This document shows, one piece after another, positions 1,970 through 39,909 of a stretch of 44,927 nucleotides of DNA. The notes beneath the pieces are model-generated. The model was not told the DNA's origin, made no database searches, and worked only from the letters and a program-made list of their open reading frames with translations. The stretch is taken from the sequence record PZ871095.1; one strand, 5' to 3'. Position 1 is the stretch's first letter, and the number at the start of each line of letters is the position of its first letter. Source of the stretch: a phage. The position numbers were made by a program, and so were the translations under genes.

Positions 1970-3490
1970 ATGACCGTTAACGTTGACAACCAGCACCCGC
2001 TCTATGCGCGCATCGCGCCAGAGTGGAAAATGATCCGTGACTGCGTAGCGGGGGAGCGCGCCGTGAAGGCGTGCGGCCCCTTGTACCTGCCACACCCAGC
2101 AAGCGGCGACACCTCCGACCCGAAATCTCGGGCACGCTATAAGGCATATAAGCAACGTGCTGTCTTCCTGAACGCCACCGCCCGCACACTGAATGCACTG
2201 TTAGGCGTCGCCTTCGCCAAACCGGTGAGTATGGACCTTTCCGGGGCAATGGCTGACCTGATCGAAGACGTAGACGGCAGCGGGATGCCCCTGGCACAAC
2301 TCCTGCGCGGCGCTATGTCGGAAGTGCTGCAATCAGGCCGTGCCGGGTTTATGGTCGACTACGACCGCCAGGCGCATTTTGACGAACTGGGTAACGTAGT
2401 ACCGCAGACCGCCGCTGAAATGGCAGCACACCGCCCGCTTATCCGCCTGTATACGGCTGAACAGATCATTAACTGGCGGCAGACCCACGGCGTCGACACG
2501 CTGATTGTGCTGAAGGAAACGGACGAAATCAGCACCGAAGACCCGGACGACTTCGCAAACCACGAAGTAACGATCTGGACCGAGCTTCGCATGATTGCAG
2601 GTAAGGCCCACGCCCGCCGCTGGTTTTACAACGCTGACACGTCCGAGGTGCAGATGGACTTGCCGCGAGGCTTCACCCGCACCGACCTTGTACCATTGGT
2701 GGATGCCTCCGGTAATGCGCTAACTCAACTGCCATTTTGCTGGTGTGGCGCGGTGGACAACAACGCGACACCGGACGCCGCACCGCTGGCGGATATTGCG
2801 TCCATCAACATTAAGCACTACAACGCCGAAGCGGACGTCGCCGAGATTGCGCACATCGTGGGGCAACCTACCCTCATTGCGACTGGTCTTACCCAATCAT
2901 GGGCGGACAAGAACCTGAAAGGCGGCATCGCGCTCGGGGCAACTAAGGGCGTTATCCTGGGCCAGAACATGGACGCCAAACTGCTTCAGGCGGAGGAGCG
3001 CAACTTGTCGGTTGCACTGTGTGAGCGCCGTGAATTGCAAATGGCTAAACTGGGCGCGGCCCTGGTCGAGAAGGGGACCGCACCTAAGACGGCAACCGAA
3101 GCGGCCTACGATGCGCAGACTGATAACAGTATCCTGTCACTGATTGCCGGTAACGTTGAGAAGGCTTTCAACCGTGCGCTGCAAATCGTCAAGCTGTTCA
3201 CGGGCGACACCGCAGATCAACGCGTAACGCTGAATAAGTTCTACACCGAAATCACGGTTGACGCACAGCTTATGACCGCAATGATGGCGGGTGTGCAGAC
3301 CGGTACGGTCCGTCTGGCGGACTTTATCAAGTGGATGATGGCCCAGGGCGTTATTGATGACTCGCAAACCGTCGAGCAGGTGGAAGACGAACTGCGAAAT
3401 CAGAATCCATTGCCTCAAATGTCCCCGGATGCGGTAGAATCGACCAAAGAAGCCCCGGACGAGGTAGCGGACAATGGCGAAGACAATTAA
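1970..3490 (+). CDS. portal protein
   Basis: 506 aa between terminase and head morphogenesis gene; acidic C-terminus; AAGGAAA ribosome-binding site before the ATG at 1970. Confidence 0.85.
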   Translation: MTVNVDNQHPLYARIAPEWKMIRDCVAGERAVKACGPLYLPHPASGDTSDPKSRARYKAYKQRAVFLNATARTLNALLGVAFAKPVSMDLSGAMADLIEDVDGSGMPLAQLLRGAMSEVLQSGRAGFMVDYDRQAHFDELGNVVPQTAAEMAAHRPLIRLYTAEQIINWRQTHGVDTLIVLKETDEISTEDPDDFANHEVTIWTELRMIAGKAHARRWFYNADTSEVQMDLPRGFTRTDLVPLVDASGNALTQLPFCWCGAVDNNATPDAAPLADIASINIKHYNAEADVAEIAHIVGQPTLIATGLTQSWADKNLKGGIALGATKGVILGQNMDAKLLQAEERNLSVALCERRELQMAKLGAALVEKGTAPKTATEAAYDAQTDNSILSLIAGNVEKAFNRALQIVKLFTGDTADQRVTLNKFYTEITVDAQLMTAMMAGVQTGTVRLADFIKWMMAQGVIDDSQTVEQVEDELRNQNPLPQMSPDAVESTKEAPDEVADNGEDN

Positions 3491-10286: not shown

Positions 10287-11012
10287 ATGGGTTATCAACT
10301 TCCCAACGGGTCCAGCGTCCAGATCGGGTCCGTATTAGGCAGCGGCATCGCGGTTACGGCAGCTACCAACGCCGCCGCGTCGATCTCCGACCTTACGCAA
10401 GGTTGCGTAATCACCTGCGCGGCTTCGCATGGTCTGGTTGTTGGCGACGTTGTTATGTTCACTAAAACCCCGTGGGTCCGAGCGCTTAACCGCGCGTTCA
10501 TCGTGGGTAAAGTGGATGCTAACGACGTGACGCTGGCGCGCTTCGATACTCAAGACGTCACAAAATACCCTACCGGCGCTTTCGGCGTAGGCACGCCGGG
10601 CGAAGTGGTGAAGGTGTCGAGCTTTATCGACTTCCCGTTTATCACTAACGTTGCCGTGTCTGGTGGCGACCAGCAGACCACCACCTTCCAGCCGTTGCAG
10701 GTGAATACCGCGATCAGTCTGAACACCACGAAAAACCCGTTGGTACAGACTTACACCTTCACCCACGACGAAGAAGACCCGATCCGCCCAATCCTGGAAG
10801 ACCTGGACGACACACAGAAAACCACTGTGATTAAGTTCACTAACCCAGCGGCAGCAAGCGGCAAAGGTGAGATTCGTATTTACCCAGCTAAGGTATCTTT
10901 CCAGAAGATTCCGTCCGCTGAAGTAAACAACGTGGAAACGGTACAATCCACTCTGACCATGCAGTCTGATATGGTTATCTACCGTAAGGATCTGGTCGAG
11001 GCATTGTCTTGA
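10287..11012 (+). CDS. major tail protein
   Basis: 241 aa, strong AGGAG ribosome-binding site, followed by a strong terminator and then the chaperone/tape-measure genes (canonical order). Confidence 0.7.
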   Translation: MGYQLPNGSSVQIGSVLGSGIAVTAATNAAASISDLTQGCVITCAASHGLVVGDVVMFTKTPWVRALNRAFIVGKVDANDVTLARFDTQDVTKYPTGAFGVGTPGEVVKVSSFIDFPFITNVAVSGGDQQTTTFQPLQVNTAISLNTTKNPLVQTYTFTHDEEDPIRPILEDLDDTQKTTVIKFTNPAAASGKGEIRIYPAKVSFQKIPSAEVNNVETVQSTLTMQSDMVIYRKDLVEALS

Positions 11013-11043
11013 TTTGGTCGCTTAAATAGCGAGTGATAATATG

Positions 11044-11067
11044 GGGCCAGCACGGCCCCTTTTTTAT
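11044..11067 (+). terminator. rho-independent terminator (GGGGCC-agcac-GGCCCC + TTTTTTATT)
   Basis: Perfect GC stem and T-run directly after the major tail gene. Confidence 0.7.
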
Positions 11068-11081
11068 TGGAGAATACTACA

Positions 11082-11444
11082 ATGGCTAAAGCACCACTCT
11101 TCACACTTGACCCTAAGCCAACCTTTAAGCTGCCGATTGAGATCCCGCGCCCTGGTGAGAACGAACCAGGCAAGATGACGTTTACCGTACGCCACCGCCC
11201 GATCGACGAGTTTTCGCAGACCATGCAGGACACCGAACGCAAGCTGTCGGAATATGACGACAATGACCCGGACGGCTTTAACGTTATGGTCGAGGCCATC
11301 ATGCACGTCGCAGAAGGCTGGAATCTGCCGGACGAATTTAACGCGGAGAACGTCCGCCGCCTGGTGGTCAACTATCCACGCGCGTTCGGTGTGTTCCACA
11401 CGTCGTACTATCTCGAACTGATGGGGTTGCGTGAAAAAAACTAA
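11082..11444 (+). CDS. tail assembly chaperone (lambda G-like)
   Basis: 120 aa from ATG 11082 (GGAG ribosome-binding site); located between major tail and tape measure genes; ends with slippery heptamer A_AAA_AAC at 11435-11441. Confidence 0.75.
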   Translation: MAKAPLFTLDPKPTFKLPIEIPRPGENEPGKMTFTVRHRPIDEFSQTMQDTERKLSEYDDNDPDGFNVMVEAIMHVAEGWNLPDEFNAENVRRLVVNYPRAFGVFHTSYYLELMGLREKN

Positions 11445-11758
11445 TTGAGGCGGCGCGACGCTTTTATGGCCCGCCGCCACCCTCCGAAGATTTAGCTGCA
11501 AGTTTATGGGGCGCGGCCCCCGAAGATGTTTGTCCACCTGTTGCGCTGTGGCCCGACAACGCGAAGGTAGTCGCAGTCTTCACAGATTGCTCCACGCAAT
11601 GGCGCACCGGATTTGGTGGCGCATACGGCATCGACTACGGCGTGCTGGAGTGGTTATTTAAGATGCACGGTATCGAAAACGAACAGCGCGCGTTTAAAGA
11701 TATCAAGCTAATGGAACGAATAGCGCTTGATGAGATGGCGCAGCAGAACCCCGCATAA
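11082..11758 (+). CDS. tail assembly chaperone frameshift product (lambda GT-like, -1 shift near 11435-11441)
   Basis: The -1 frame is open for about 105 codons from the slippery site to a TAA at 11756-11758, with no independent start or ribosome-binding site; canonical position for programmed frameshifting. Confidence 0.6.
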
Positions 11759-11760
11759 TG

Positions 11761-12012
11761 AAGCGGGACGTCCCGCTTTGTCCCGCCCTGTAAAACCGCA
11801 TATCTAATCACTTTCATTGCATAAACTCAAAGCGGGACAGGCGGGACGTCCCGTTTTGTCCCGCCCATGAAATGTGCATACCTATTCTAATTTCGTGCAT
11901 AAAACAAGCGGGACAGAAAGCGGGACAGACAAGGGGCGGGACAAAGCGGGACAGCACCCCGTCCCCGCCAGTGCTGCCGCGGTTTTCAGCCGATCGGGAC
12001 AAGCGGGACAAA
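11761..12012. repeat. cluster of GCGGGACA octamer repeats (about 12-14 copies, direct and inverted)
   Basis: Direct reading: GCGGGAC(A/G) recurs at roughly 11-16 bp spacing, including two GCGGGACGTCCCG palindromic hairpins followed by T-runs; starts right after the chaperone extension stop. Confidence 0.85.
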
Positions 12013-12015
12013 GCC

Positions 12016-12064
12016 CAGTCTTTCAGACTAGACGGGGGTCAACGGCCCCCCTCGTCTGAGACTG
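12016..12064 (+). promoter_or_regulatory. conserved 49-nt bulged hairpin element (copy 1)
   Basis: CAGTCTttCAGACtaGACGGGGG-tcaacgg-CCCCCCTCGTCTGAGACTG folds into an interrupted stem of about 18 bp; near-identical copy at 39700-39749. Confidence 0.5.
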
Positions 12065-12132
12065 AATAAGGTTTGTTTGAAATTTGCTGATACAATGACA
12101 GTCGGCAACTGCATAAAAAAGGGGACTGCATA

Positions 12133-14775
12133 ATGGCAGATCAAGCGGCTGGCATCACGCTAAAGGCGGATGTTGCACAAATCAGAACGGCAAATACTGT
12201 GCTGGACTCCTTCGCACAGAAATCCGAGAACACAGAAAACAAGGTTAAGAAATTAAACGACACCCTCGGCAAATCCAAAAAGGTGACGAGTGACGCCGCG
12301 GGCGGAATGGAGAAGCTGGCGACTGAATCGCAGCGCGCCGCCGATGGCATGACGAAACAGGAGCGACTTGCCAACAGGTTAGGCATGTCGACAAAAAACC
12401 TGGGCTTTGCCTCGCGTAACGCCGCATTCCAGTTACAGGATATCGCAGTTACGCTTGAGATGGGGATGCCAGTACACCGCGTTATGCTTCAGCAGTTACC
12501 GCAGTTAACTGGGGCGTTCGGCGGACTGGGTAACACGCTGCGTTATGTTGCGGGATTCCTCGGCCCAGTAGGGATCGGCCTTGCCGCCGTAACGGCAACG
12601 TTAGGCGTGGGCGTGGCAATTACGTCCCGCGCAGAGAACCAGGTCGCCGCGCTTAACAAGACGCTGGCGCTTTCCGGCAACATTTCCGGCCTGACGGCAA
12701 ACCAGATCCTGGTGCTATCCGAGAACGCCGAGCGCATGGGCGGGTCGTTCCGCAAGACGCGTGACACAATCCAGGCGCTGGCGGCGGCGGGTGTGAAAGC
12801 GGGTGGTGACTTCGGCGCACTGGCGAAGGTAGTGAATGACTTCGCGAAGGTGTCCAGCCAGCCGATCGAGGATGTAGTCGCGGCGGTGGCGAAGCTATCT
12901 ACCGACCCGGTAGGTGGCTTGCGAGCATTGGCTGATAAGTATCACGTCGTAAACGAAGCGCAGATCCAGCAGGTGCAGTCGCTCGTTGATGCGGGTCGTG
13001 AGACAGACGCAGTTGCGTTGGCTAACAAAACAGCCGCTGCGTCGTTCACCAGCATGACCAATGAAATCAAGTCCAACATGGGTACGCTTGAGCGGTCGAT
13101 GAACGTCGTCACATCGGCAGCTAAATCTATGTGGGATGCAATCCTGGATGTGGGCCGCGCGCAGTCCTCGAATGAGTCAGAGATGAAAGCGCGTGAGTCA
13201 TTGCAGCGCATGACCACGGCTTATTATGCCGAGATGAAAGCGGTAAACGCTGCCGGTGGGGTAATGACTGAAGCGCAGAAAGCACGTATTAACATGCTTT
13301 ACAGCGAACTGGTCGCCCAGGAAAAAGTGGTGGCGTCGCTCACCCTGCGTAATCGTGCGGAGCGAGACAACGCCCGCGCCGCAGACGAATCCGCAAAGGC
13401 GAACGAGGAGGCCAACCGCACTGCCCGTGACCGCGCCGCGTTCGAGAAGGAATACGCCACCAACGCTAAGAAGCGCGCCGACGAGATCGCCCGCCTCAAT
13501 TTGCTGAATAAGCGCGGCGTGATTGACGAGAAAGAGCTTGCCGAGGCGGTGAAGCAGGTAAACGAGCGTTACAAAGACCCCGCCCCGAAGAAGGCCGCCG
13601 CTGTTCGAGTCGATGCCGGGCTGAAAATGCTGGAAGTCGCGCGAAGCGAATTAGCCCAGCTTCGTGAGTCTGGGAAGCAGATCGAAGCCAACGCATCGAC
13701 GCAGACCAGAACGCAACGCGCGCAAGCGGCCCTTAACAAGCTGATTGCCGACAACGAGCAGTTAATCGCTGCGAGCAAAGAAAGGGCGCTGACGGCAGCA
13801 GAGAAGCAGCAATTAGTCGAGTTCGGGCGCGTGAAGGAAGTACGCGAGCAGATCGTCGAAGAAGCCAAATTGCTGGACGCAAAAGAGAAGCAGGTCAAGG
13901 CGCACGCGCAGATCGACGCCTTCGTTAAGAACCAGAACGCCGAGCTAAAAGCCACCGCGGCGGGCTATGCGCTTTCCACTCGCGAAGCGGCAAACCTGCG
14001 CGAAGAATTGCAGCTAATTGACCGCCTGAAGCGGGTTGGCGCTAACGATACCGATATTGACAAGGCGGTGTCTAAGCTGCGAGAAGTGCAGGAAGCACAG
14101 ACCGGCGCTAACGCCTCGTTATGGGATGGATTCAGTCGCGGGCTTAAGGATAGCGTGGATGAAATGGGTAACGGATATACGCAGATGGCGTCGCTCACGA
14201 AATTTACATTCAGCGCTATGCAGGACACGATGAACGAGTTTTTCGAGACTGGTAAGCTGAACGCAAAGGATATGGTTAAGTCCATCCTGAGCGAATTAAT
14301 CAAGCTGGCTACCTCGCAGGCGTTCAAGTCCATCGTTAGCGCTTTCGGTGGTGACGGCGGCAAAAACGGATTGTTCGGCGCTATCTTCTCTGGCCTCACT
14401 AAGAATGCGGACGGCGGAGCGTACACAGGCGGCAATCTCGCGGCCTATTCGGGGAAAGTGGTAAGCCAGCCTACCTTTTTCAGTTATGGCGTCCAGGCGT
14501 TCGCTAAGGGCGCTGGGTTGATGGGTGAGGCTGGACCCGAGGCCATCATGCCACTGAAGCGCGGGCCGGACGGGAAACTGGGCGTTGCCGCGTCTGGCGC
14601 AGGCGGTGGTATGGTCGTGACGACTAACGTTTACACGGGGACCGGTAAGACGGACACCAGTGTTAGCGGGCCAGACCCACGTACCGCGCAGGCGTTCGGC
14701 AAGCAAATCACCGAGGCGGTGAAGTCCGAGATCGTGAAAGCGACTAAACCAGGTGGTGTACTTTACAAACGATGA
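12133..14775 (+). CDS. tail tape measure protein
   Basis: 880 aa, long helical A/K/E/Q-rich protein with a glycine-rich hydrophobic segment; directly follows the chaperone genes. Confidence 0.9.
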   Translation: MADQAAGITLKADVAQIRTANTVLDSFAQKSENTENKVKKLNDTLGKSKKVTSDAAGGMEKLATESQRAADGMTKQERLANRLGMSTKNLGFASRNAAFQLQDIAVTLEMGMPVHRVMLQQLPQLTGAFGGLGNTLRYVAGFLGPVGIGLAAVTATLGVGVAITSRAENQVAALNKTLALSGNISGLTANQILVLSENAERMGGSFRKTRDTIQALAAAGVKAGGDFGALAKVVNDFAKVSSQPIEDVVAAVAKLSTDPVGGLRALADKYHVVNEAQIQQVQSLVDAGRETDAVALANKTAAASFTSMTNEIKSNMGTLERSMNVVTSAAKSMWDAILDVGRAQSSNESEMKARESLQRMTTAYYAEMKAVNAAGGVMTEAQKARINMLYSELVAQEKVVASLTLRNRAERDNARAADESAKANEEANRTARDRAAFEKEYATNAKKRADEIARLNLLNKRGVIDEKELAEAVKQVNERYKDPAPKKAAAVRVDAGLKMLEVARSELAQLRESGKQIEANASTQTRTQRAQAALNKLIADNEQLIAASKERALTAAEKQQLVEFGRVKEVREQIVEEAKLLDAKEKQVKAHAQIDAFVKNQNAELKATAAGYALSTREAANLREELQLIDRLKRVGANDTDIDKAVSKLREVQEAQTGANASLWDGFSRGLKDSVDEMGNGYTQMASLTKFTFSAMQDTMNEFFETGKLNAKDMVKSILSELIKLATSQAFKSIVSAFGGDGGKNGLFGAIFSGLTKNADGGAYTGGNLAAYSGKVVSQPTFFSYGVQAFAKGAGLMGEAGPEAIMPLKRGPDGKLGVAASGAGGGMVVTTNVYTGTGKTDTSVSGPDPRTAQAFGKQITEAVKSEIVKATKPGGVLYKR

Positions 14776-39507: not shown

Positions 39508-39591
39508 ATTTTGGGTGTTTTTATCATGTCGTATTGGTTGCCGTGTTGTGTAGCTATAATGAATAGTTATGCAATAAAACTGCATAAAGTA

Positions 39592-39697
39592 AGCGGGACA
39601 GAAAGCGGGACAAACAAGGGGCGGGACAAAGCGGGACAGCACCCCCGTCCCGCCCCGGATGGCGCGGCCCGGAGAGGAGCGGGACAGGCGGGACAAA
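39592..39697. repeat. cluster of GCGGGACA octamer repeats (about 7 copies), second locus
   Basis: aagcgggacagaaagcgggacaaacaaggggcgggacaaagcgggacagc...gagcgggacaggcgggacaa; highly similar to 11901-12012. Confidence 0.85.
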
Positions 39698-39699
39698 CC

Positions 39700-39749
39700 C
39701 CAGTCTTTCAGACTAGACGGGGGTCAATGGCCCCCCTCGTCTGAGACTG
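39700..39749 (+). promoter_or_regulatory. conserved 49-nt bulged hairpin element (copy 2)
   Basis: Same sequence as 12016-12064 except one loop base (tcaatgg versus tcaacgg). Confidence 0.5.
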
Positions 39750-39909
39750 CATAAAATCCGGGGATTGCAAAATACACGGCAGCATGATGCGAAGTGCGGT
39801 CGTTGACGAACTAGGCAACCAATGCGAGTTGTATTATGCGGAGTGAAAAATGCGGTTTGCAGTCACAGCGGATAGCGATCAACTTTTTCATGCGCGTGAT
39901 TAATATTGG

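What the first reader, a model, noticed from the sequence alone, without database searches (positions are those of the whole stretch)
11430..11758. Probable programmed -1 ribosomal frameshift in the tail assembly chaperone gene
The chaperone ORF ends ...REKN* with the heptamer A_AAA_AAC (11435-11441) in the zero frame, a classic slippery sequence. The -1 frame then stays open for about 105 codons to 11758 with no start codon or ribosome-binding site of its own. This matches the G/GT-type arrangement found between major tail and tape measure genes in long-tailed phages.
Basis: partly seen in the sequence, partly recalled or inferred. Interest (0 to 1): 0.5.

Follow-up and report, generated by a model that had tools for sequence, protein, structure and literature searches.

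The report
Tail chaperone G/GT frameshift site
This is the usual programmed -1 ribosomal frameshift that lets a long-tailed phage make a short and a long tail-assembly chaperone from one gene pair; it is real and well conserved, but it is a known kind of signal.

Summary
The chaperone ORF (11082-11444, 120 aa, Pfam Phage_TAC_4) ends CGT GAA AAA AAC TAA, so A_AAA_AAC (11435-11441) is in the zero frame. The -1 frame is closed by TGA at 11432-11434 and then open to 11758. The two open frames therefore overlap by exactly the heptamer.

The 105-codon extension is a real domain (Pfam DUF1799, E=3e-21). Its first start codon leaves only 38 aa. Across 21 Dhillonvirus haplotypes it evolves under purifying selection.

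All 93 related loci examined (10 lineages at 60% identity) keep A_AAA_AAC or G_GGA_AAC, a stop codon directly after it, and a 103-123 codon -1 extension. The genes lie between the major tail protein and tape measure genes. Phage Tls already annotates the join.

A 7-bp GC hairpin (11449-11478) starts 7 nt after the heptamer. It is supported by suppressed synonymous variation (p=2e-5) and by synonymous-codon shuffles, but only in the enterobacterial lineages.

This is a new member of a known kind and of modest interest. No fusion protein has been shown experimentally.

The parts
10287..11012 (+). Major tail (tube) protein gene, upstream neighbour
   Evidence: Pfam Phage_tail_3 E=1.3e-32; PHROG 584 major tail protein E=3e-74
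11082..11444 (+). G-type tail assembly chaperone ORF (120 aa, 14.0 kDa), zero frame. An SD-like GGAG lies at 11069-11072.
   Evidence: Pfam Phage_TAC_4 E=1.4e-23, matching 1-124 of 124 model positions; ORF list; mass
11432..11434 (+). TGA in the -1 frame, which closes that frame directly upstream of the heptamer
   Evidence: Translation of the -1 frame; overlap of the two open frames is 7 nt. SECphi18 has CGA at this position, so this stop is not conserved.
11435..11441 (+). Slippery heptamer A_AAA_AAC in the zero frame
   Evidence: The same position carries A_AAA_AAC or G_GGA_AAC in 93 of 93 related loci across 10 lineages.
11442..11444 (+). Zero-frame TAA stop directly abutting the heptamer (first 3 nt of the 7-nt spacer)
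   Evidence: A stop (TAA, TAG or TGA) directly follows the heptamer in 93 of 93 loci. In a 60% G+C lineage the Leu codon is CTA before G, which makes TAG.
11449..11478 (+). Candidate stimulatory hairpin: GGCGGCG (11449-55) pairs with CGCCGCC (11472-78); 16-nt loop; 7-nt spacer after the heptamer
   Evidence: Present in the MFE and centroid folds, -17.1 kcal/mol. Synonymous-codon shuffle p=0.041 here and <0.001 in the Tls and Klebsiella phage lineages. Synonymous-site suppression has Fisher p=2e-5 and p=6e-4 in the Tls lineage. Not supported family-wide.
11441..11758 (+). T-type extension in the -1 frame (105 codons plus TAA). The fusion GT is join(11082..11441,11441..11758), 225 aa, 25.6 kDa.
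   Evidence: Pfam DUF1799 E=2.7e-21, matching 1-80 of 80 model positions; PHROG 680 E=8.5e-31. Codon-position bias of variation is 23/10/71.
12133..14775 (+). Tape measure protein gene, downstream neighbour
   Evidence: Pfam TMP_2 E=2e-43 and Tape_meas_lam_C E=5e-14; PHROG 24 E=3e-183

Best explanation
The window is a Dhillonvirus, a siphophage of E. coli. Most ribosomes translating the chaperone gene read ...GAA AAA AAC, terminate at TAA and release the 120-aa G-type chaperone. A small fraction slip back one base on A_AAA_AAC. In that slip tRNA-Lys re-pairs AAA to AAA, and tRNA-Asn re-pairs AAC to AAA with a wobble mismatch. Those ribosomes continue with CTA ATT GAG... and make a 225-aa GT fusion with the junction ...REKN-LIEAAR....

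By analogy with lambda, the G part of both proteins coats the tape measure protein. The rarer T domain recruits the major tail protein, so the frameshift frequency fixes the G:GT ratio.

Two features probably tune a heptamer that is weak in E. coli. One is the stop codon directly after it. The other is the GC hairpin 7 nt downstream, which sits at the mRNA entrance when the heptamer is being decoded.

Shown here: the sequence anatomy, family membership of both halves, purifying selection on the -1 frame, and conservation of the heptamer and stop. Inferred: that slippage occurs, its frequency, the roles of the hairpin and the stop, and the protein functions.
For: Anatomy: the only stretch open in both frames is the heptamer. 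The extension has no usable start; the first is GTG at 11642, leaving 38 aa of a domain that spans extension residues 23-99.

Homology: Phage_TAC_4 at E=1e-23 and DUF1799 at E=3e-21. PHROG 17368 matches G at profile positions 1-107 and T at 150-212, so some phages have the fusion annotated as one protein.

Synteny: the pair lies between the major tail protein and tape measure genes.

Conservation: tblastn of the fused protein finds 729 phage records covering at least 80% of it. Most of the listed full-length hits come in two pieces, meaning two frames. In 93 of 93 loci, forming 10 clusters at 60% aa identity with G+C from 44 to 67%, X_XXA_AAC is followed by a stop and a 103-123 codon -1 ORF containing the QWR motif. 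The scan pattern that found these loci was the G N-terminus, so ascertainment was independent of the junction. R117, N120, L121 and A124 around the junction are invariant in the alignment of fused proteins.

Selection within Dhillonvirus: variable sites by codon position are 10/6/77 in G and 23/10/71 in T.

Translational mechanism: half of the lineages use the non-homopolymeric G_GGA_AAC, which favours translational over transcriptional slippage.

Hairpin.

Precedent: phage Tls (37% identical) carries the same A_AAA_AAC TAA and its record annotates the joined CDS tfmS. [quoted passage not shown] The lambda G:GT ratio of 30:1 is needed for tail assembly (PMC5009743).
Against: There is no experimental evidence for a fusion product in this phage, this genus or (as far as I found) this protein family. 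The Tls join is marked 'non-experimental evidence'.

A_AAA_AAC is inefficient in E. coli, at a little over 0.1% without stimulators (PMC4066793).

The hairpin is not exceptional against dinucleotide shuffles (z=-0.53; z=-0.17 in a longer context). It is absent or differently placed in the Pseudomonas, Ralstonia and SU57-like lineages. It has no family-wide covariation in a fixed register.

The A7 run could also support some transcriptional slippage.
Confidence: 0.9

Rival explanations
1. Transcriptional slippage: RNA polymerase adds one A in the A7 run (11434-11440). A fraction of mRNAs then carry A8 and encode the fusion in one frame, with the junction ...REKK-LIEAAR.
For: The heptamer is part of a 7-A homopolymer. 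Transcriptional slippage on A/T runs is used by some bacterial IS elements (Baranov et al. 2005, as cited in PMC4066793). Only a low yield would be needed.
Against: Five of the ten lineages, 49 of 93 loci, have G_GGA_AAC at the same place. That has only three A's and cannot support polymerase slippage, yet it keeps the X_XXY_YYZ rule in the zero frame. From general knowledge, efficient slippage needs runs of about 9 or more. The conserved adjacent stop and the hairpin at 7 nt are features of a ribosomal signal. A minor contribution in the A7 lineages is not excluded.
Confidence: 0.05
2. The T region is translated on its own, either from an internal or non-canonical start or by termination-reinitiation at the TAA. 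In that case no fusion is made.
For: Several GenBank records call small ORFs here: a 96-nt CDS in McMelon and SECphi18, and a 117-nt 'DUF1799 domain-containing protein' in JLBYU60. SU57-like phages have a GTG five codons after the shift site, annotated with a ribosome-binding site. An SD-like GAGG lies at 11447-50.
Against: In the window the first start in frame is GTG at 11642, which leaves 38 of 105 residues and removes more than half of the DUF1799 domain. Purifying selection covers the whole extension from its first codons. There is no conserved start near the stop across lineages. Independent initiation would not explain an invariant in-register slippery heptamer in 93 of 93 loci.
Confidence: 0.03
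3. Artefact or decay: a homopolymer sequencing error, or a frameshift mutation in what was a single G-T gene, or a dead remnant.
For: Homopolymer runs are error-prone in some sequencing chemistries.
Against: The same arrangement is found in 21 distinct Dhillonvirus haplotypes and in 9 other lineages sequenced independently. The frame downstream shows third-position-biased variation and no stops.
Confidence: 0.01

Closest known systems
Phage lambda G / GT tail assembly chaperones (Levin, Hendrix & Casjens 1993; Xu, Hendrix & Duda 2004, 2013, 2014; reviewed in PMC5009743)
   Same: Two overlapping ORFs lie between the major tail and tape measure genes. The second is in the -1 frame with no start of its own. 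The shift occurs on an X_XXY_YYZ heptamer near the end of G. Sizes are similar: G 120 aa here against 140 aa, and the extension 105 against about 140 aa.
   Different: The protein families differ. Lambda G is Pfam Phage_TAC_2 and lambda T is Phage_tail_T, whereas here they are Phage_TAC_4 and DUF1799. BLASTP of the two T parts finds no similarity (E=0.23). From my own knowledge, not checked here, lambda uses G_GGA_AAG some codons before the G stop. Here the heptamer ends in AAC and abuts the stop. Lambda T overlaps the tape measure gene H, whereas here a 374-nt non-coding, repeat-rich spacer follows.
Phage Tls (T1-like, Drexlerviridae) tfmA / tfmS tape measure chaperones, AY308796
   Same: The protein families are the same, at 37% identity over the fused protein. 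The A_AAA_AAC TAA junction is identical. A hairpin starts 7 nt after the heptamer in the same codon register, with two compensatory pair changes relative to the window. The record annotates the joined CDS.
   Different: It belongs to a different family of phages, and G is shorter (104-106 aa). The hairpin is GGCGGTTT/AAACCGCC rather than GGCGGCG/CGCCGCC. No long non-coding spacer precedes the tape measure gene.
Acinetobacter phage vB_AbaS_Loki gp12/gp13 (PMC5313236)
   Same: [quoted passage not shown]
   Different: It has a different host and was not compared at sequence level here. It is also only a prediction.
IS1 insA-insB' frameshift on A_AAA_AAC (Escoubas et al. 1991, as cited in PMC4066793)
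   Same: It uses the same low-efficiency heptamer in E. coli to make a small, fixed amount of a fusion protein.
   Different: The product is a transposase, not a phage assembly protein. No stimulator has been established for it, and I did not check its stop-codon context.

Membership tests
G/GT-type frameshifted tail assembly chaperone pair of long-tailed phages (Xu, Hendrix & Duda 2004) | The two ORFs lie between the major tail protein gene and the tape measure protein gene | tested here: met
   Major tail protein 10287-11012 (Phage_tail_3), G 11082-11444, T to 11758, tape measure protein 12133-14775 (TMP_2, Tape_meas_lam_C)
G/GT-type frameshifted tail assembly chaperone pair of long-tailed phages (Xu, Hendrix & Duda 2004) | The second ORF overlaps the end of the first in another frame and has no start or ribosome-binding site of its own | tested here: met
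   The -1 frame is open 11435-11758. The first start codon is GTG at 11642.
G/GT-type frameshifted tail assembly chaperone pair of long-tailed phages (Xu, Hendrix & Duda 2004) | A slippery sequence in the correct register lies inside the overlap and is conserved in relatives | tested here: met
   A_AAA_AAC is the entire overlap. X_XXA_AAC is present in 93 of 93 loci across 10 lineages.
G/GT-type frameshifted tail assembly chaperone pair of long-tailed phages (Xu, Hendrix & Duda 2004) | Both the short and the fused protein are made, at a fixed low ratio, and both are needed for tail assembly but are absent from virions | not testable with these tools
   This needs protein detection and genetics. 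No such data were found for Dhillonvirus.
Pfam PF08748 Phage_TAC_4 | Score above the curated gathering threshold over the full model | tested here: met
   83.9 bits against a cut-off of 21.1; residues 1-120 match model positions 1-124 of 124
Pfam PF08809 DUF1799 | Score above the curated gathering threshold over the full model | tested here: met
   76 bits against a cut-off of 26; extension residues 23-99 match model positions 1-80 of 80
Lambda's own chaperone families (Pfam Phage_TAC_2 and Phage_tail_T) | Sequence-level match to those models or to lambda G and T | tested here: not met
   Pfam reported only Phage_TAC_4 and DUF1799 for the window proteins at E<=0.1. Lambda G and T hit Phage_TAC_2 and Phage_tail_T. 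BLASTP of T against lambda T gives E=0.23. The resemblance to lambda is one of arrangement and presumed function, not of family.
Canonical bacterial -1 PRF signal (slippery heptamer plus downstream structure after a short spacer; I recall 5-9 nt as the usual range, not checked here) | A stable structure at the right distance that is under selection | tested here: inconclusive
   The hairpin 11449-11478 has a 7-nt spacer. Supporting it: synonymous shuffle p=0.041 (window) and <0.001 (Tls and Klebsiella lineages), and synonymous-site suppression at p=2e-5 and p=6e-4. Against it: dinucleotide-shuffle z=-0.53, no signal in 5 or more other lineages, and no family-wide covariation.

The most novel reading that the evidence does not exclude
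The Phage_TAC_4/DUF1799 chaperone family may use a distinct, strictly conserved 'shifty stop' cassette. It consists of a weak X_XXA_AAC heptamer that must be followed directly by a stop codon, plus a hairpin 7 nt downstream in the enterobacterial lineages. Under this reading, slow termination with tRNA-Asn in the P site, rather than the usual A/P tandem slip alone, sets the G:GT ratio. The ratio would then respond to release-factor activity and to queuosine modification of tRNA-Asn in the host.
Probability: 0.3. Interest if true: 0.45.

Novelty: new member of a known kind. Interest (0 to 1): 0.25.

Why it matters
Practically, it corrects annotation. None of the five Dhillonvirus GenBank records I opened joins the two ORFs. 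Several call spurious small ORFs in the T region or label the chaperone 'tape measure protein'. The correct product is join(11082..11441,11441..11758).

Biologically, it adds a well-sampled case to the G/GT rule. It also shows that this chaperone family keeps one particular signal across hosts with 44 to 67% G+C: a heptamer ending in AAC, an abutting stop, and in E. coli and Klebsiella phages a hairpin 7 nt downstream. That makes the family a convenient system for asking how a weak heptamer is tuned to give a fixed low ratio of two assembly proteins.

Tried and rejected
1. Family-wide covariation for the hairpin in a fixed register, tested on 47 distinct sequences in an ungapped 63-column alignment. 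59.6% of cells paired, and the covariation score was not above the slid controls. I rejected it as a universal feature. Support is confined to the Dhillonvirus, Tls-like and Klebsiella phage lineages.

2. Dinucleotide-shuffle z-scores for the hairpin region were -0.53 and -0.17. These are uninformative in this GC-rich sequence. I replaced them with synonymous-codon shuffles and synonymous-site variation.

3. A stem I thought I saw by eye in the Pseudomonas phage (CGCCGCA/TGCGGCG) was a misreading. The real sequence does not form it.

4. Rfam search of 11000-12200 found only sub-threshold miRNA-type hairpin noise over the palindromic repeats, and no known frameshift element.

5. PDB sequence search with the fused protein found no homologue. 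I did not predict a structure. Only window sequences, or hits from the very expensive protein search, may be submitted for that. The Pfam matches already settle family membership.

6. BLASTP against lambda T found no similarity.

7. Literature searches for Dhillonvirus or DUF1799 together with frameshift found no description of this site.

8. An upstream SD-like stimulator (GGGG at 11423-26, 8 nt before the heptamer; GGG in Tls and K50) could not be separated from a conserved Gly codon. I left it open.

9. My first heptamer-scanning loop used the wrong register and printed A_AAA_AAA.

Full report
IDENTITY OF THE WINDOW. Region 10287-12200 is 99.3% identical to Escherichia phage McMelon. It is 90-98% identical to about 150 other Dhillonvirus genomes, which are HK578-like siphophages of E. 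coli.

THE OBSERVATION. The sequence reads ...CTG ATG GGG TTG CGT GAA AAA AAC TAA in the frame of the ORF 11082-11444 (120 aa from its ATG). An SD-like GGAG lies at 11069-72.

- A_AAA_AAC occupies 11435-11441 in X_XXY_YYZ register. It is the only such in-frame heptamer in the ORF.
- The -1 frame carries TGA at 11432-34 and is then open to the TAA at 11756-58.
- The only nucleotides open in both frames are therefore the seven of the heptamer. Any shift that joins the two ORFs must happen there.
- After the shift there are 105 sense codons (11441-11755).
- The first ATG/GTG/TTG in that frame is GTG at 11642, which leaves 38 aa. ATG at 11663 leaves 31 aa.

WHAT THE TWO HALVES ARE.
- The ORF is a full-length Pfam Phage_TAC_4 tail assembly chaperone (E=1.4e-23).
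- The extension is a full-length DUF1799 domain (E=2.7e-21, extension residues 23-99).
- PHROG 17368, a 213-position profile, matches the ORF at positions 1-107 and the extension at 150-212. Elsewhere, then, the two parts are annotated as one protein.
- Upstream is the major tail (tube) protein (Phage_tail_3, PHROG 584).
- Downstream is the tape measure protein (TMP_2, Tape_meas_lam_C, PHROG 24).
- Starting at either internal start codon would remove more than half of the DUF1799 domain.

CONSERVATION WITHIN THE GENUS. In 21 distinct Dhillonvirus haplotypes, variable sites fall 10/6/77 by codon position in G. They fall 23/10/71 in the -1 frame of the extension. No haplotype has a premature stop. 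The extension is therefore translated and under purifying selection from its first codons.

CONSERVATION ACROSS LINEAGES. tblastn with the conceptual fusion finds 1142 phage records, 729 of them covering at least 80% of it. Most of the listed full-length hits come as two pieces, meaning two frames. The hosts include Escherichia, Klebsiella, Ralstonia, Pseudomonas and others.

I collected 93 loci: 12 GenBank loci, 80 IMG/VR loci and the window. The IMG/VR scan was seeded by an N-terminal peptide of G, so ascertainment was independent of the junction. The loci form 10 clusters at 60% amino-acid identity, with G+C from 44 to 67%.

- Every locus has A_AAA_AAC (44 loci, 5 clusters) or G_GGA_AAC (49 loci, 5 clusters) as the last two sense codons of G.
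- Every locus has a stop codon directly after it (TAA, TGA or TAG).
- Every locus has a 103-123 codon -1 ORF with the DUF1799 QWR motif.
- In the alignment of fused proteins, R117, N120, L121 and A124 around the junction are invariant.
- The stop appears to be selected for in its own right. The Leu codon that follows the shift is CTG when the next base is A, giving TGA. In a 60% G+C lineage it is CTA when the next base is G, giving TAG. It is never CTG-G, which would remove the stop.

A DOWNSTREAM STRUCTURE. Seven nucleotides after the heptamer, GGCGGCG (11449-55) can pair with CGCCGCC (11472-78) around a 16-nt loop. The MFE is -17.1 kcal/mol. The hairpin is kept in the MFE and centroid folds of a 141-nt context.

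Evidence against significance:
- Against dinucleotide shuffles it is unremarkable (z=-0.53), as expected for GC-rich RNA.
- The Pseudomonas, Ralstonia, SU57-like and other lineages show no excess stability.
- A fixed-register helix is not supported over all 47 distinct sequences.

Evidence for significance:
- Against shuffles that keep the protein and the gene's codon usage, it is more stable than expected. p=0.041 in the window and p<0.001 in the Tls-like and Klebsiella phage lineages. Those lineages have a hairpin in the same codon register (GGCGGTTT/AAACCGCC and GGGCGGT/GCCGCCC).
- Between the Dhillonvirus and Tls-like lineages two pairs change on both sides (C-G to U-A and G-C to U-A). These changes accompany Ala-to-Val and Pro-to-Lys replacements.
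- Synonymous variation collapses exactly over the signal. In Dhillonvirus, 2 of 15 third positions vary between 11430 and 11478, against 146 of 210 elsewhere in G and T (Fisher p=2e-5). The one variable codon inside the hairpin lies in its loop.
- In the Tls and Klebsiella lineage the figures are 6 of 15 against 84 of 100 (p=6e-4).

I conclude that the hairpin is a probable stimulator specific to the enterobacterial A_AAA_AAC lineages. It is not a family-wide feature.

MECHANISM. The best-supported reading is a programmed -1 ribosomal frameshift. tRNA-Lys slips AAA to AAA, and tRNA-Asn slips AAC to AAA. In the G_GGA_AAC lineages tRNA-Gly slips GGA to GGG. Translation then continues at CTA 11441-43. 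The result is a 225-aa, 25.6-kDa GT protein beside a majority 14.0-kDa G.

[quoted passage not shown] A low yield fits the lambda precedent, where a G:GT ratio of about 30:1 is required (PMC5009743).

The abutting stop and the hairpin are the obvious candidates for tuning the yield. Whether the slip occurs with AAC in the A site (tandem slip) or with the stop in the A site (P-site 'shifty stop' slip) cannot be decided from sequence.

The protein roles are inferred from lambda (PMC5009743): G coats the tape measure protein and T recruits the tail tube protein. They were not tested here. The protein families also differ from lambda's own (Phage_TAC_2 and Phage_tail_T; no BLASTP similarity).

RIVALS.
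- Transcriptional slippage on the A7 run would give the same fusion with Lys in place of Asn. Half of the lineages use G_GGA_AAC, which cannot slip transcriptionally, and the conserved stop and hairpin are ribosomal features. A minor contribution remains possible.
- Independent initiation or reinitiation of T is contradicted by the lack of a start, by selection on the whole extension and by the invariant heptamer.
- Sequencing error or gene decay is excluded by recurrence in 21 haplotypes and nine other lineages.

WHAT IS KNOWN. The G/GT frameshift is a textbook feature of long-tailed phages (Xu, Hendrix & Duda 2004; PMC5009743).

- The record of phage Tls, 37% identical, has the same A_AAA_AAC TAA and annotates the joined CDS 'tfmS', marked as non-experimental.
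- I found no paper describing the site in Dhillonvirus.
- None of the five Dhillonvirus records I opened joins the ORFs. Instead they carry small ORFs of 96-117 nt, or nothing, in the T region.

VERDICT. This is a new, well-documented member of a known kind. Two details are of some interest to specialists: the invariant AAC heptamer with an abutting stop, and the lineage-specific hairpin. Interest is modest. What is missing is any direct detection of the fusion protein.

Noticed in passing
window 11759-12132, and 39580-39763: The 374-nt gap between the T stop and the tape measure gene is non-coding and packed with the 7-mer GCGGGAC in both orientations: 11 copies at 11763-12009, including the perfect palindrome AAGCGGGACGTCCCGCTT. 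A second cluster of 7 copies lies at 39593-39694. The whole window has 25 copies against 9.3 expected, and none of 100 shuffles reached 25. About 170 nt (roughly 11896-12068 and 39580-39763) is a diverged duplicate, about 88% identical. It ends in a GC-rich hairpin GACGGGGGTCAAYGGCCCCCCTCGTC. It looks like an array of binding sites for a DNA-binding protein or a repeated regulatory or RNA element. Phage jat annotates a 'repeat_region' here. Function unknown.
   Followed up: partly
window 11043-11068: A terminator-like hairpin GGGGCC-AGCAC-GGCCCC followed by TTTTTTATT lies between the major tail protein gene and the chaperone gene. It could lower expression of the chaperones and tape measure protein relative to the tube protein.
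   Followed up: no
window 11423-11426: A GGGG run lies 8 nt upstream of the heptamer. GGG occurs at a similar distance in the Tls and Klebsiella phage lineages, and AGAGGG in the Pseudomonas lineage. It might act as an internal Shine-Dalgarno-like stimulator as in dnaX, but it coincides with a conserved Gly codon, so the two could not be separated.
   Followed up: partly
L001 (McMelon) 2720-3283; L005 (SECphi18) 1478-2093; L007 (JLBYU60) 1161-1277: Public Dhillonvirus records carry probably spurious small ORFs inside the T extension and the repeat-rich spacer. Some label the chaperone 'tail length tape measure protein' or 'major tail protein'. PHROGs 569, 680 and 17368 themselves carry the description 'tail length tape measure protein' for what are chaperone families.
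   Followed up: partly
one search hit list (e.g. MG065673.1 Campylobacter phage A119, 28.8 kb): Twenty-one records named Campylobacter phage carry a T1-like chaperone pair, 39% identical to the query and in two frames. That would be unexpected for Campylobacter phages and may reflect contaminating coliphage sequence.
   Followed up: no
L011/L012/L087 (SU57- and Rogue1-like Braunvirinae): This lineage keeps A_AAA_AAC TAA but has lost the downstream hairpin, and it has a GTG five codons into the extension. Annotators take that GTG as the start of a separate gene. It would be a natural comparison for testing whether the hairpin matters.
   Followed up: partly
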